Positions 2,600 to 5,305 of a DNA stretch of 51,184 nt are shown in pieces (position 1 is the stretch's first letter; every line of letters starts with the position of its first letter). Below the pieces are notes generated by a model. The model did not search any database, had not been told where the DNA came from, and saw only the letters and a list, made by a program, of their open reading frames with translations. The position numbers and the translations under genes were made by a program. Origin of the DNA: a virus (Duplodnaviria > Heunggongvirae > Uroviricota > Caudoviricetes); IMG/VR virus record IMGVR_UViG_2585427745_000020; one strand, 5' to 3'.

Positions 2600-5305
2600 C
2601 TACATTGCCATTAATATAAACATGGCCAATTCGTCATAACGAATTCCGTAGCGTCCTCCTGCTTTTTTTACAAGAATCATATCTCCTGTTTTATATTGAG
2701 AATAAATTTTCTCACCTGTATCAGGATCTGTGCTCTCTTCAGTTATCACCTCTTCATCCCATACGTCAGGCCATTCATCGTAACACCAAAAAGCATATTG
2801 CTCAGGGTTTAAACCATGCTTTCTAAGAATATCCCCTACGGTTTGAGCGCCAACGCCAAAATGATACCTGGACGACTCAATTCCTTTGTGATTAATTGAG
2901 TCATTAAATTTAAATTTATAGATGACTGACTTTATTTCAATAGCGGCATCACGCTCTGCATTAAGAATATCATATCTTGTTTTAAGAGTTTCATCTGATG
3001 TATTGATTGACCCGGTTCCTGCATAAATAACAGAGCATCTGTTTGATGGCTGTCCAATAGCTTTAACATTATCATCAACAGGAGCTATTTTATTAGCATC
3101 TGCCAACCACCAGTCTGTTCCATCAGCGTGACCGATTCTTACTCTTATCCCACTTCTAATATTTAAACTTCCAGTATTACTCTGTAAATTACAATCTCCT
3201 GACGTTGGTCCAAGCAGTACAGTTTTACCAACACCACATACTACTCTGGCATTTCCTTTTTGTGATACGAGTCTTGACTCACCTCCTGACTGCTCAGGAA
3301 GAGATTTATGGTCTATAAATGCATCGCGGGGGTTAAATACACCGTCTCCAGAATTATATCTTCCTCCTGTATAGTTGTTAAATACAGGACCCCAGTCAAC
3401 GCCATTGCCTTCAGAGCACCCGACCATTCTAAGCACTCGAGTATTCCCTGCTGCATATGGTAATGAGCTTGTTGATTGCCGGGAAGCTATCATACGTGCT
3501 CCATAACCAATAGCATTACCACCATTTATAGTTACATATGCTTGCTGGCTTTCGAAATATGTACTGTAAAAGTTCATATTTCCACAGTCATGTAGATGAA
3601 TAAGAACATCATCCCATCCCTGAATGGTTCCTGCATGTACCTGTACACCGCGAACTGGTTCCCCTGAAACCTCCATACACTCTGATGGTCGGCTGAATGG
3701 TTGAGACAGGTATTGCGATGTGGCAAGCAGATGTGTGTGGTGATACAGGCTGGTAATGTAGCAATCAAAAAATTGCTTTCCCGCCATACCAAAGTTATCT
3801 ATGTCATTTCGCCGTATAGTAGAACCTACTGTTGCCTCAGAAGCGTTAGACACTCCAGTAAATACTAACTTATCACCGGATACGGATAATCCTGAATAAG
3901 TGAAATTCCTGCCTCCAGATCTTAAAACCCCGGACGTTTCGAAGGTGTGGCTTGCTGACCATGGGATTTCGATAGTGCTGGACGTTACCGCTGTAATTCG
4001 GAATACATCATGGGCGCGGATCGAAATACCCTTGAATCCCTGGAATCTACAGTGATAATAGTTTTCATCCTCGCCCTGAGCGGCCAGCGTGCCAGATACA
4101 GGAATGTTCGTTTTTAAAAGTGCCGTCTTGCGCCAGTATCCAACCACCTGCAAATTGCGGTATTCATTGCCAAAAGACGCACGTGACCAAATACCTACAT
4201 CCCACTCATCGCCAAGACCGGTATTTGCAATGTCTTTATAACCATCCAGCCCATTGAAATATGGAACAATACGAAAGTTCTCAAGGCGAACACATCCTGT
4301 CTCTGGCATCAATATTGCGGCAGAGAATGGTTTAAGCGTGGCTCTTGTAGCCCCATTAGCATCACCGTTAGTAAAATCCAATAAATCATATGATGACGCA
4401 GGTGCCGTTGTTGTATACGGGTCTTCGGAAGATGGATTAGAAACCACACCACCACTAACATCCATATTAGAAACACAATCTACAGTATATTTTTTATTTC
4501 CTACACCGTACATCAGGAATGTGGTCCCTGTGGTAATATCAGGAGCAAATGTTGCAGTATATCCAGAGACCCATTTGCCCACACCAAGACCAATTATCCC
4601 ACCACCAGAAACAGGTGTTAACGTATCCGTTATTACATACGCATTATCAGTACCATAAATAACCTTTCCTGTGTTAAGGGCAGCTTGCCACGCGGCCCAG
4701 TCTATTGACTGAGATAATGAGTCAACAAAAGGATATAAGGATTTTGCTTCAGAAATTGAAGAAAACCACTCAGATAATGGATGATATTTCCCATCCCCAA
4801 TTGCTCCAAATTGTTTTACATTTAAGAAAAGAGCATTGTTTTCATGCTGAGTTATAGTTACAGCCCCGGTAAATGGCTGCCTTACCCCAATTAATGCATC
4901 ACCTTTTGAATCATCATTAATGTATGCTCCTGATTGAGATAACTGCTCTTTGAAGTCTGGGCCAAACTGATCTGGATCGTATTTTAATACATTTGGAAAA
5001 TAAAACTGCTGAGTGCCATAAGCATCGTAAACAACCATAGAATGGCCTTGCACGGTTACGAATTTGGCAATCTGTCCGTTATATACCGGATATCCAGCAG
5101 CGTTAATGATGATTGGTTGCGAAACAGGAACGTGAGAACCGTCTTCGTTCTCTACATAAACCTGACTCTGGTTTTCAGGATTTACCGGGTCAGTGTCAAT
5201 TTTACCGATATAAATTTTGCCATTGGCTACGGCTTTAAAAGAACGCGCCATAGTGAAGAGTTGCGAAGGCATACTCACTACAACATTGGCTGTAATGTCT
5301 GTCAT
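2600..5305 (-). CDS. Tailspike protein, P22-like N-terminal head-binding domain, distinct receptor-binding body, C-terminal chaperone-like segment
   Basis: 901 aa; N-terminus [13 protein letters not shown]...[25 protein letters not shown] matches P22 gp9; C-terminus carries an S-D-x-x-L-K motif typical of tail-fibre intramolecular chaperone domains. Confidence 0.85.

What the first reader, a model, noticed from the sequence alone, without database searches (positions are those of the whole stretch)
2600..5305. Chimeric tailspike with no conversion genes between integrase and tailspike
The N-terminal roughly 110 residues match the P22 gp9 head-binding domain, while the remaining 790 residues are unrelated to P22 gp9 and end in a segment with an S-D-x-x-L-K motif characteristic of autocleaving tail-fibre chaperone domains. 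In related argW elements the integrase-tailspike interval usually carries O-antigen conversion genes; here the interval is about 200 bp and empty. The receptor specificity is therefore likely different from P22 or Sf6.
Basis: partly seen in the sequence, partly recalled or inferred. Interest (0 to 1): 0.35.

Follow-up and report, generated by a model that had tools for sequence, protein, structure and literature searches.

The report
Capsule-targeting modular P22-like prophage tailspike
This gene encodes the host-recognition spike of a P22-like prophage in E. coli, assembled from swapped modules (an Sf6/P22-type anchor, a sugar-cutting beta-helix and a self-removing folding domain); genome comparisons suggest it targets a K13-type capsule rather than the O-antigen, but the design itself is already known.

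Summary
Window 2600-5305 (minus strand) is a 901-aa tailspike. Residues 1-113 are a P22/Sf6 head-binding domain. The centre is unrelated in sequence to P22 gp9. S770-D-E-T-L-K775 opens a Peptidase_S74 intramolecular chaperone and aligns with the catalytic Ser/Lys of endoNF and T5 pb1. The 197-bp integrase-tailspike interval holds only junction sequence and a terminator-like hairpin.

An empty interval is common in argW prophages, so it says nothing about specificity. The same anchor-plus-chaperone architecture already exists at this locus in the CUS-3-type endosialidase tailspike.

The centre models as a right-handed beta-helix of a large depolymerase family; the closest solved fold is LKA1 gp49. 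Codon 133 to the terminator is a mobile cassette, 98.6% identical in an unrelated podovirus-like prophage and about 72% identical at protein level in lytic phage YZ1.

Only 15 of 5,426 complete E. coli genomes carry the cassette. Eleven of them are among the 65 genomes with a KrkA-type (K13/K20/K23-family, ribose-Kdo) capsule locus (odds ratio 273, p 4e-19). Their O types differ.

Most likely this is a capsule depolymerase for that K family. It is a new member of a known kind, and the specificity is inferred, not shown.

The parts
1009..1083 (+). tRNA-Arg(CCT), argW. This is the integration site and left prophage end. A 16-bp core TTGCAGGTTCGATTCC at 1054-1069 is repeated at 40614-40629.
   Evidence: ARAGORN, Rfam tRNA, repeat search.
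1209..2402 (+). Tyrosine integrase (IntS type), convergent with the tailspike gene.
   Evidence: Pfam Arm-DNA-bind_3, Phage_int_M and Phage_integrase. Annotated intS in CH10508 and K-12.
2403..2599 (.). Intergenic junction of 197 bp with no conversion gene. 2403-~2472 is the integrase-side flank shared with other argW prophages. 2550-2599 is the cassette-side flank shared with the 991-aa form.
2559..2581 (-). Terminator-like hairpin followed by a T run, starting 19 nt after the tailspike stop codon. It travels with the receptor-binding cassette.
   Evidence: Consensus scan. It lies inside the 98.6%-identical block shared with LS45.
2600..5305 (-). Tailspike precursor, 901 aa and 98.4 kDa. Predicted mature form is aa 1-769 (83.1 kDa).
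4967..5305 (-). aa 1-113: head-binding (tail-hub attachment) domain, 91% identical to Sf6 gp14 and 75% to P22 gp9.
   Evidence: Pfam PF09008 E 4e-65, PDB 7sg7, 2vky and 1lkt. DNA homology with other argW tailspike genes ends at codon 114.
4859..4966 (-). aa 114-149: linker/neck. The conserved joint [12 protein letters not shown] lies at aa ~134. The cassette shared with other phage types begins at codon 133 (window 4907).
   Evidence: Low pLDDT in the model.
3302..4858 (-). aa 150-668: right-handed beta-helix, the predicted polysaccharide depolymerase. Family-conserved polar residues are R345, Y356, D369, R392, R430, D433, H522, E545, R552 and E585.
   Evidence: AF2 pLDDT mostly 80-95. Foldseek top match is LKA1 gp49 4ru4 (E 6e-12), followed by Sf6, CBA120 and GH110 beta-helices. 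Sequence hits to 4ru5/4ru4 at aa 161-246. Conservation.
2999..3301 (-). aa 669-769: stalk preceding the cleavage site, presumed to be an intertwined trimeric beta structure.
   Evidence: End_tail_spike match at aa 735-769, below cut-off. PDB alignments start at aa ~730. The monomer model is poor here (pLDDT 37-57).
2603..2998 (-). aa 770-901: C-terminal intramolecular chaperone (Peptidase_S74) with the S770/K775 dyad. Predicted to be released as a 15.3-kDa fragment.
   Evidence: Foldseek 3gw6 E 6e-10 and 3gud TM 0.74. pLDDT 81-94. Masses.
5406..6296 (-). Antirepressor (KilA-N + P22AR_C), the upstream neighbour and part of a P22-type immI region.
   Evidence: Pfam. sar RNA at 6298-6364. Arc 6625-6846 and Mnt 6874-7122.

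Best explanation
This is the receptor-binding tailspike of an apparently complete P22-like prophage integrated at argW. It is built from four modules. (1) An Sf6/P22-type head-binding domain (aa 1-113) docks trimers on the tail hub. (2) A short neck (aa 114-149) carries a conserved recombination joint. (3) A right-handed beta-helix (aa ~150-668) binds and cleaves a surface polysaccharide. (4) A stalk is followed by an S74 intramolecular chaperone (aa 770-901). The chaperone is inferred to fold the trimer and then cut itself off between T769 and S770 using the S770/K775 dyad. Modules 3 and 4, together with their terminator, form a cassette that moves between unrelated podoviruses. The substrate is most likely the group 2 capsule made by the KrkA polymerase, with backbone ->3)-beta-Ribf-(1->7)-beta-Kdop-(2-> (the K13/K20/K23 family), and not the O-antigen. 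Shown here: the domain homologies, the fold class, the mosaic boundaries and the genome association. Inferred: trimerisation, autocleavage, enzymatic activity and the substrate.
For: Architecture: Pfam, PDB and PHROG hits. The AF2 model has pLDDT 74.7 and pTM 0.65. Foldseek matches beta-helix tailspikes and the endoNF, T5 and phi29 chaperones. S770 and K775 align with the catalytic Ser/Lys of endoNF and T5 pb1 (PMC4690869). Prophage context: P22 coat, portal and gp10, an Sf6-type needle knob and an ejection protein, and an immI region. Cassette mobility: the DNA is 98.6% identical from codon 133 to 50 bp past the stop in a different prophage type next to yfgI. The protein is about 72% identical in the gp17-position protein of Kayfunavirus YZ1. 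Homologues carry T7-tail or TSP1/Gp66 N-termini. Precedent: the NU14 CUS-3-type tailspike at the same locus is Head_binding + endosialidase + S74. Substrate: the cassette occurs in 15 of 5,426 complete genomes. A krkA-type kps region 2 occurs in 65 of 5,426, and all 65 were inspected. Eleven carriers are krkA-positive (odds ratio 273, Fisher p 4e-19). These carriers span an O86 strain, an O102:H6 ST964 strain, an ST73 strain and ST2003. They also span two krkA sub-variants, two prophage types and several integration sites. Among the 60 O86 genomes listed, only CH10508 is krkA-positive and only CH10508 carries the cassette. NCTC9022 is the K13 strain in which KrkA was characterised (PMC12887879). 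The CH10508 enzyme is 95.8% identical to it.
Against: Four carriers lack krkA. LS45 and XH992 share another K locus. 23CRST013 has a third locus. AHB29 (OZ547246), which carries two copies of the cassette, has a locus containing wecB and wecC. The genomes are not phylogenetically independent and no correction was applied. The kps type of the window's own host is unknown. No enzymatic data exist for any close homologue. The Pfam S74 hit is only 1 bit above cut-off. The stalk is poorly modelled, and the model is a monomer. The best structural neighbour, LKA1 gp49, acts on an O-antigen.
Confidence: 0.6

Rival explanations
1. It is an O-antigen-specific endoglycosidase or lyase tailspike, like those of P22, Sf6 and HK620. 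On this view the capsule association is incidental.
For: Most characterised P22-like phages use O-antigen (established knowledge). The head-binding domain is 91% identical to Sf6. The top structural match, LKA1 gp49, cleaves an O-antigen, and Sf6 and CBA120 O-antigen tailspikes also match.
Against: Carriers have different O backgrounds: an O86 cluster in CH10508, O102:H6 in YDC107 and ST73 in DLL7555. Of 80 O86 genomes, only one of the 60 listed carries the cassette, and it is the one with the krkA capsule. Beta-helix fold matches do not discriminate between substrates.
Confidence: 0.12
2. It is a depolymerase for some other receptor, such as another K type or another exopolysaccharide. The krkA enrichment would then reflect shared ancestry or co-transfer rather than receptor use.
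For: Four of 15 carriers have other K loci, including AHB29 with two copies. No phylogenetic correction was done. kps loci are exchanged often (PMC13171606).
Against: The association spans phylogroups, O types, two krkA variants, two prophage types and several integration sites. All typed exceptions still carry group 2 kps loci, and some of their region 1 proteins are identical to those of CH10508. That pattern is compatible with a later swap of region 2.
Confidence: 0.2
3. It is a binding-only fibre with no enzymatic activity, or an esterase that modifies the receptor rather than cutting it.
For: The C-terminal part resembles the T5 pb1 and Kp7 fibres. No catalytic residues have been demonstrated. 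K13-family capsules are O-acetylated.
Against: The body is a long pectate-lyase-type beta-helix. It keeps an invariant or near-invariant set of Asp, Glu, Arg, His and Tyr residues across homologues 27-80% identical. No SGNH or esterase domain was found.
Confidence: 0.06
4. It is a relic gene of a defective prophage and is no longer used.
For: Many argW elements are remnants, K-12 CPS-53 being one. In strain 702/18 the same gene is interrupted by an IS3 element.
Against: The ORF is an intact 901 aa. All virion and immunity modules tested are present. Central-domain DNA is 99.0-99.9% identical in all 15 carrier genomes, and the nearest database proteins differ by 5-13 residues. Both prophage ends carry the att core.
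Confidence: 0.02

Closest known systems
CUS-3-type endosialidase tailspike of K1 E. coli prophages (example here: NU14, argW)
   Same: It sits at the same locus and in the same prophage type. It has the same Head_binding domain at aa 1-113 and the same End_tail_spike + Peptidase_S74 C-terminus. DNA is about 94% identical up to codon 114. It targets a group 2 capsule rather than O-antigen (established knowledge).
   Different: Its catalytic body is a GH58 beta-propeller and beta-barrel (PF12217, PF12195), not a beta-helix. CUS-3-type elements carry an acyltransferase gene between the integrase and the tailspike. That gene is neuO, from established knowledge. Here the interval is empty.
Sf6 gp14 tailspike (PDB 7sg7, 2vbk, 4urr)
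   Same: The head-binding domain is 91% identical. Similarity continues to aa 175 at 52% identity. The overall plan is a beta-helix. Sf6 is also an argW-integrating P22-like phage (established knowledge).
   Different: There is no sequence similarity beyond aa ~175. Sf6 has no S74 chaperone. Sf6 is an endorhamnosidase acting on the S. flexneri O-antigen.
Intramolecular chaperone domains of K1F endoNF (3gw6), T5 pb1 (4uw8), phi29 gp12 (3gud) and Klebsiella Kp7 fibre (7y5s)
   Same: Homologous C-terminal domain (E 5.5e-21 to 2.6e-08). The Ser/Lys dyad aligns with a five-residue spacing, at the start of the domain.
   Different: The domains are attached to different receptor-binding bodies. Cleavage has not been demonstrated for this protein.
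Pseudomonas phage LKA1 gp49 and phi297 tailspikes (4ru4, 4ru5)
   Same: They are the best structural matches for the beta-helix (E 6e-12 and 2e-09). The start of the helix is detectable by sequence at aa 161-246.
   Different: Identity is about 13% and TM-scores are low (0.2-0.3). They have different N- and C-termini, and their substrate is a P. aeruginosa O-antigen.
991-aa 'tail fiber domain-containing protein' of another E. coli prophage type, and the gp17-position protein of Kayfunavirus YZ1
   Same: They carry the same receptor-binding and chaperone cassette. The 991-aa form is 98-99% identical from aa ~133 onward, and YZ1 is 72% identical.
   Different: They have different virion-attachment N-termini. 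The 991-aa N-terminus has no Pfam match, and YZ1 relatives have a T7 tail-fibre N-terminus. None has been characterised.
Phage-borne glycanases for E. coli K13/K20/K23 capsules described biochemically in the 1980s-90s (recalled from memory; not found in the paper library)
   Same: The proposed substrate is the same, a beta-Kdo/ribose capsule.
   Different: I know of no sequence for those enzymes, so identity cannot be tested here. This is a lead only.

Membership tests
P22-like tailspike (gp9/gp14 class) | N-terminal head-binding domain (PF09008) | tested here: met
   E 4e-65 over the full profile 1-113. 91% identical to Sf6 and 75% to P22.
P22-like tailspike (gp9/gp14 class) | Encoded at the end of the virion gene block of a P22-like genome, next to immI and the integrase | tested here: met
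   Coat, portal, gp10, needle knob and ejection protein are upstream. Ant, sar, Arc and Mnt are adjacent.
P22-like tailspike (gp9/gp14 class) | Homotrimeric beta-helix receptor-destroying enzyme | tested here: inconclusive
   The monomer model shows a beta-helix that matches tailspike folds. Trimer formation and activity are not testable here.
Peptidase S74 / C-terminal intramolecular chaperone | Homology to the chaperone domain | tested here: met
   PF13884 at 23.0 bits against a cut-off of 22. 7y5s E 5.5e-21 and 3gw6 1.8e-13. Foldseek 3gw6 E 6e-10 and 3gud TMt 0.74.
Peptidase S74 / C-terminal intramolecular chaperone | Catalytic Ser at the first residue of the domain and Lys five residues later | tested here: met
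   S770 and K775 align with the (S->A)911/K916 positions of 3gw6 and the (S->A)1264/K1269 positions of 4uw8.
Peptidase S74 / C-terminal intramolecular chaperone | Preceding trimeric stalk that the chaperone folds | tested here: inconclusive
   End_tail_spike at aa 735-769 scores 22.8 bits, below the cut-off of 25. The region is poorly modelled as a monomer.
Peptidase S74 / C-terminal intramolecular chaperone | Autoproteolytic release after trimerisation | not testable with these tools
   Needs expression of wild type and the S770A/K775A mutants.
Pectate-lyase-superfamily beta-helix depolymerases (PF12708-type) | Right-handed parallel beta-helix with an N-terminal FGAxGDG cap motif | tested here: met
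   QFGAIGDG lies at aa ~165-172. Hits to 4ru5/4ru4 at aa 161-246, the profile hit, and fold matches. PF12708 is recorded for distant homologues but is not significant for this protein itself.
Endosialidase (GH58) | Beta-propeller catalytic domain (PF12217) and beta-barrel (PF12195) | tested here: not met
   No such hits here, in contrast with the NU14 tailspike. Some database names such as 'putative endo-N-acetylneuraminidase' reflect only the shared C-terminus.
Serotype-conversion module next to the argW integrase (gtrABC, oac/neuO-type acyltransferase) | Conversion gene(s) between the integrase and the tailspike | tested here: not met
   The 197-bp interval has no ORF and consists of flanks shared with other elements. 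Compare.
K13/K20/K23-family capsule depolymerase (functional class) | Carried by phages whose hosts make the KrkA-type capsule | tested here: met
   11 of 15 carriers against 65 of 5,426 genomes overall, odds ratio 273, p 4e-19, not corrected for phylogeny. Four exceptions.
K13/K20/K23-family capsule depolymerase (functional class) | Cleaves the Ribf-Kdo polymer | not testable with these tools
   Requires an enzyme assay on purified capsule.

The most novel reading that the evidence does not exclude
The beta-helix cassette (codon 133 to the terminator) is the first sequence-defined depolymerase for the E. coli K13/K20/K23 family of ribose-Kdo capsules. That would make it a phage enzyme cutting a Kdo-containing polymer with a beta-helix scaffold and a conserved Arg/Asp/Glu/His/Tyr constellation, possibly founding a new glycoside-hydrolase or lyase family. 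It circulates as a plug-in module among at least four podovirus lineages: P22-like, a second temperate podovirus-like type, Kayfunavirus and Vectrevirus-like.
Probability: 0.4. Interest if true: 0.5.

Novelty: new member of a known kind. Interest (0 to 1): 0.3.

Why it matters
Taken as written, the finding is ordinary. Modular tailspikes with swapped receptor-binding bodies and S74 chaperones are well documented. Near-identical proteins (5-13 residue differences) are already deposited as 'phage tailspike protein'.

The useful outcome is a concrete, cheap-to-test prediction. This cassette may be the depolymerase for KrkA-type (K13/K20/K23-like) capsules. Those capsules occur in clinical lineages, including ST405-complex, ST73 and an O25b:H4 strain.

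If confirmed, the prediction would supply a typing and decapsulation reagent for that K family. It would give a sequence handle for predicting phage host range from kps type. It would also provide an enzyme acting on a Kdo-containing polymer for mechanistic study.

Finally, the case shows that the presence or absence of conversion genes beside the argW integrase is not informative about receptor type.

Tried and rejected
(1) The first structure prediction used a 12-sequence alignment of 71-98% identical homologues plus one at 30%, and it failed (pLDDT 36). It was discarded.

(2) A profile search intended to collect diverse homologues was swamped by about 110 near-identical E. coli entries. It was solved by querying a distant member, P0232.

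(3) Sequence-profile searches of the PDB found nothing for aa ~250-700. Only fold comparison classified the body.

(4) The O-antigen hypothesis was tested. CH10508 is O86, but no other carrier appeared among the 60 O86 genomes listed, and other carriers are O102:H6 or ST73. It was rejected as the main explanation.

(5) GH110 blood-group-B alpha-galactosidases appeared among the fold hits. This looked suggestive because O86 mimics blood group B. I judged it a generic beta-helix resemblance, since the O86 association failed.

(6) I considered a generic activity on the poly-Kdo linker shared by all group 2 capsules. I rejected it because carriers are concentrated in one K family that makes up 1.2% of genomes.

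(7) Literature searches for phage YZ1's host serotype and for the old K13/K20 phage glycanase papers found nothing usable.

(8) The first attempt to locate the kps locus of AHB29 hit the wrong island. It was found later.

(9) The model coordinates are not exposed to scripts, so I could not test whether the conserved residues cluster in 3D.
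Full report
WHAT IS THERE. The window starts in yfdC (1-933). It continues with tRNA-Arg(CCT) = argW (1009-1083), an IntS-type tyrosine integrase (1209-2402, +) and a convergent 901-aa ORF (2600-5305, -). Upstream of that ORF lie an antirepressor (KilA-N + P22AR_C), sar antisense RNA, Arc and Mnt. Beyond them are ejection proteins, an Sf6-type needle knob, gp10, P22 coat, portal and terminase. This is an apparently complete P22-like prophage. A 16-bp piece of the tRNA 3' end (1054-1069) is repeated at 40614-40629. The DNA is E. coli. 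The segment 900-5353 is 99.8% identical to strain CH10508.

CHECK OF THE OBSERVATION. Pfam gives Head_binding at aa 1-113 (E 4e-65), End_tail_spike at aa 735-769 (22.8 bits, below the cut-off of 25) and Peptidase_S74 at aa 770-832 (23.0 bits against 22). The single SD..LK motif is at aa 770-775, the first residues of the S74 match. Independent support for the C-terminus is strong. phmmer against PDB sequences matches aa ~730-898 to the Klebsiella Kp7 fibre (7y5s, E 5.5e-21), tailspike 9vvr, the endoNF chaperone construct 3gw6 (1.8e-13), T5 pb1 (4uw8), 6eu4 and phi29 gp12 (3gud).

In the residue-level alignments, '[12 protein letters not shown]' lies over 'TGTINT-S-DARL-K' of Kp7, 'PIVT-A-NGER-K' of 3gw6 and 'TINT-A-DARL-K' of 4uw8. 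The Ala in the last two is the engineered Ser-to-Ala substitution that blocks cleavage. For T5 these residues are Ser1264 and Lys1269, and the mature fragment ends at residue 1263 (PMC4690869). Cleavage is therefore predicted between T769 and S770. That would give an 83.1-kDa spike and a 15.3-kDa chaperone from a 98.4-kDa precursor.

P22 gp9 matches only aa 1-~121, whereas Sf6 gp14 matches aa 1-175. Identity over aa 1-113 is 91% to Sf6 and 75% to P22, and over aa 114-175 it is 52% to Sf6. The 197-bp interval has no ORF. It contains a terminator-like hairpin (2559-2581, minus strand) starting 19 nt after the stop codon.

MOSAIC BOUNDARIES. blastn against fetched loci shows that three other argW P22-like prophages share 90-94% identical DNA from upstream of the gene to codon 114. 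These are ST131 4993, NU14 and NIID080884. They then share nothing until the integrase-side flank (window 2438-2472). A different prophage type in LS45 lies next to yfgI, carries a T7 gp14-family core protein and encodes a 991-aa 'tail fiber domain-containing protein'. It shares 98.6% identical DNA from codon 133 to window 2550, which includes the hairpin. The transferable unit is therefore 'codon 133 to terminator'. The joint sits in a conserved peptide, [12 protein letters not shown], which is KGDAMIGVKQPL in Sf6.

The same cassette appears behind T7 tail-fibre N-termini and TSP1/Gp66 N-termini in metagenomic proteins. It is 72% identical in the gp17-position protein of Kayfunavirus YZ1 and about 41% identical in Vectrevirus phages. 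The family is large, with 1,255 representatives at 50% clustering and E <= 1e-3.

THE INTERVAL CLAIM. The 3' end of the integrase is found in 1,234 complete genomes. Sampling what follows it gave four arrangements. ST131 4993 has the tailspike directly adjacent, separated by 144 bp and no gene. NU14 has an acyltransferase and then a 981-aa tailspike. NIID080884 has an acyltransferase and then a tailspike. K-12 has gtrA-gtrB-gtrS. Eleven further genomes (H39-H49) fit yfdC, argW, the integrase and a tailspike into about 4.4-4.9 kb, which leaves no room for conversion genes.

The same 901-aa gene in other contexts also lacks adjacent conversion genes. Examples are SBF22, next to a different integrase, and UPEC_U013, at the bio/ybhB end of a prophage with an 84-bp relic of the argW integrase. 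An empty interval is thus a common state and carries no information about the receptor.

WHAT THE BODY IS. Sequence methods place only aa 161-246 (LKA1 gp49 and phi297 tailspikes) and the C-terminus, even with a 61-sequence profile. A first AF2 run on a shallow alignment failed. After I collected distant homologues, a 33-sequence alignment gave mean pLDDT 74.7 and pTM 0.65. The region aa ~150-668 scored mostly 80-95, and the chaperone scored 81-94. The stalk (aa 669-713 and 751-769) stayed below 50, as expected for an intertwined trimer modelled as a monomer.

Foldseek against the PDB ranks LKA1 gp49 first (E 6e-12). It is followed by the endoNF chaperone, phi297, T5 pb1, the Sf6 tailspike, CBA120 TSP3, GH110 enzymes, alginate epimerases and other right-handed beta-helices. 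BFVD returns 'pectate lyase superfamily' and 'Peptidase S74' tailspikes. TM-scores are low (0.2-0.3) because the query has several domains. I therefore take from this the fold class, not a specific enzyme family.

Across homologues 27-80% identical, a set of polar residues is invariant or at least 90% conserved in two alignments. They are R345, Y356, D369, R392, R430, D433, H522, E545, R552 and E585. This is what one expects of an active site for an acidic polysaccharide. Whether they cluster in space could not be checked.

WHAT IT PROBABLY CUTS. The central-domain DNA occurs in only 15 of 5,426 complete E. coli genomes, and four of those have both the 901- and 991-aa forms. Their O types disagree. 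CH10508 carries the O86 cluster. YDC107 is O102:H6 ST964 (PMC6035167). DLL7555 is ST73 (PMC13494036). EC21Z-144 and EC21Z-151 are ST2003. Of 80 O86 genomes, CH10508 was the only carrier among the 60 listed.

I then located the group 2 capsule locus of CH10508 beside yghD. Its serotype-specific region 2 holds one 1114-aa 'HAD family hydrolase' and a CatB-type O-acetyltransferase. That region occurs in 65 of 5,426 genomes. Two listings together showed all 65. Eleven of the 15 cassette carriers are among them. Nine have the CH10508 variant: CH10508, CS5L, SBF22, 702/18, HS4, E22, YDC107, EC21Z-144 and EC21Z-151. Two have the 97%-identical variant found in NCTC9022: UPEC_U013 and DLL7555. The odds ratio is 273 and the Fisher p is 4e-19, not corrected for relatedness.

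NCTC9022 is the K13 strain in which this very ORF (WP_001336789, KrkA) was shown to be the sole polymerase of the ->3)-beta-Ribf-(1->7)-beta-Kdop-(2-> backbone. K13, K20 and K23 share that backbone and differ only in O-acetylation (PMC12887879; grouping in PMC13171606). The CH10508 enzyme is 95.8% identical to KrkA, whereas its acetyltransferase is only 40.6% identical. It is therefore probably a K13-like type with a different acetylation pattern. The same cassette, with at least 99% identical central-domain DNA, sits in lysogens of both variants. That suggests recognition of the common backbone.

There are four exceptions. LS45 and XH992 share a glf/ugd/GT2 locus. 23CRST013 has a locus that shares only ugd and a GT2 with that one. 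AHB29 (OZ547246), which has two copies of the cassette, has a wecB/wecC locus. All four still have group 2 kps loci. LS45's KpsC, KpsU and KpsD, and AHB29's KpsE and KpsD, are the same protein accessions as in CH10508. This is compatible with later replacement of region 2, a process reported to be frequent. It is weak evidence, however, and the exceptions lower my confidence.

HOW IT LIKELY WORKS. Shown here: the domain homologies, the fold class, the mosaic boundaries, the prophage context and the statistical association. The rest is inferred from established knowledge of P22 and Sf6 tails and of endoNF and T5 chaperones. Three chains fold around the C-terminal chaperone, which nucleates the stalk. 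S770, activated by K775, cleaves the T769-S770 bond and the chaperone leaves. Trimers bind the tail hub through aa 1-113. The beta-helix binds and cleaves capsule chains, and the virion works its way down to the outer membrane. Hydrolase and lyase chemistry cannot be told apart here.

COMPARISON AND NOVELTY. The closest known system is the CUS-3-type K1 tailspike. In NU14 it occupies the same locus and is Head_binding + endosialidase + End_tail_spike + S74. The 'P22 anchor + capsule enzyme + S74 chaperone' plan is therefore known, and only the enzyme body differs. Near-identical proteins, differing by 5-13 residues, are already deposited under generic names. I rate this a new member of a known kind. 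The element of interest is the predicted K13-family specificity. From memory, phage-borne glycanases for K13/K20/K23 were described biochemically decades ago without sequences. I could not retrieve those papers, so that link is only a lead.

VERDICT. The gene is an ordinary modular tailspike in architecture, with a specific and testable receptor prediction. Interest is 0.3.

Noticed in passing
window 40614-51184: A second mobile element lies in tandem after the P22-like prophage. It has its own integrase (41062-42396), a Zn-ribbon/Toprim/DUF927 primase (45208-47880) and two Psu-family genes (48282-49573), which makes it a P4-like satellite. The tRNA 3' end appears split: TTGCAGGTTCGATTCC at 40614-40629 and CTGCAGGGGACAC at about 40922-40935. 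Between them lies a 66-aa ORF with a weak helix-turn-helix match (40649-40849).
   Followed up: partly
window 6298-7122: A complete P22-type immI region is present: sar antisense RNA (6298-6364, Rfam 63.6 bits), Arc (6625-6846, minus strand) and Mnt (6874-7122, plus strand), next to the antirepressor gene.
   Followed up: partly
window 7165-8613: Three plus-strand ORFs form a moron-like block between immI and the ejection genes. They are a 199-aa ORF with no Pfam hit, an overlapping 139-aa YafO-toxin-like ORF (7749-8168, E 1e-11) and a 140-aa ORF with no hit. They may be a toxin-antitoxin or exclusion cassette.
   Followed up: no
L008 (LS45, NZ_CP095448.1 1488677-1491652): The same receptor-binding cassette sits on a 991-aa protein whose ~130-200-residue N-terminus has no Pfam match. 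That protein belongs to a different podovirus-like prophage (with a T7 gp14-family core protein) next to yfgI. This form is far commoner in databases than the P22-like form; for example, P0062 occurs on 142 contigs.
   Followed up: partly
L013 (CH10508), L015 (LS45) and L019 (AHB29) kps loci: Strains with different capsule region 2 share identical region 1 protein accessions. KpsC, KpsU and KpsD are shared by LS45 and CH10508, and KpsE and KpsD by AHB29 and CH10508. This is compatible with capsule switching by recombination within the conserved regions.
   Followed up: partly
L007 (CH10508, NZ_CM166341.1 2015506-2016904): The O86 wzy polymerase gene is annotated as frameshifted with an internal stop in CH10508. 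Either this is an assembly error or the strain is O-antigen-deficient, which would leave the capsule as the exposed receptor.
   Followed up: no
NZ_CP074701.1 (strain 702/18) 4845022-4849546: In this genome the 901-aa tailspike gene is interrupted by an IS3-family element and is annotated as separate head-binding and tail-fibre fragments.
   Followed up: no
L010 (UPEC_U013, NZ_CP058596.1 3445992-3446099): A P22-like prophage integrated beside ybhB/bioA carries the same tailspike plus an 84-108-bp relic of the argW-type integrase 3' end. The tailspike-integrase junction has therefore been moved between integration modules.
   Followed up: partly
fold hits (no window coordinates): GH110 alpha-1,3-galactosidases that remove the blood-group B antigen are among the structural neighbours, and CH10508 is serogroup O86 (a blood-group-B mimic, from memory). 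I judged this a coincidence of the beta-helix fold, because no other carrier appeared among the O86 genomes listed.
   Followed up: yes
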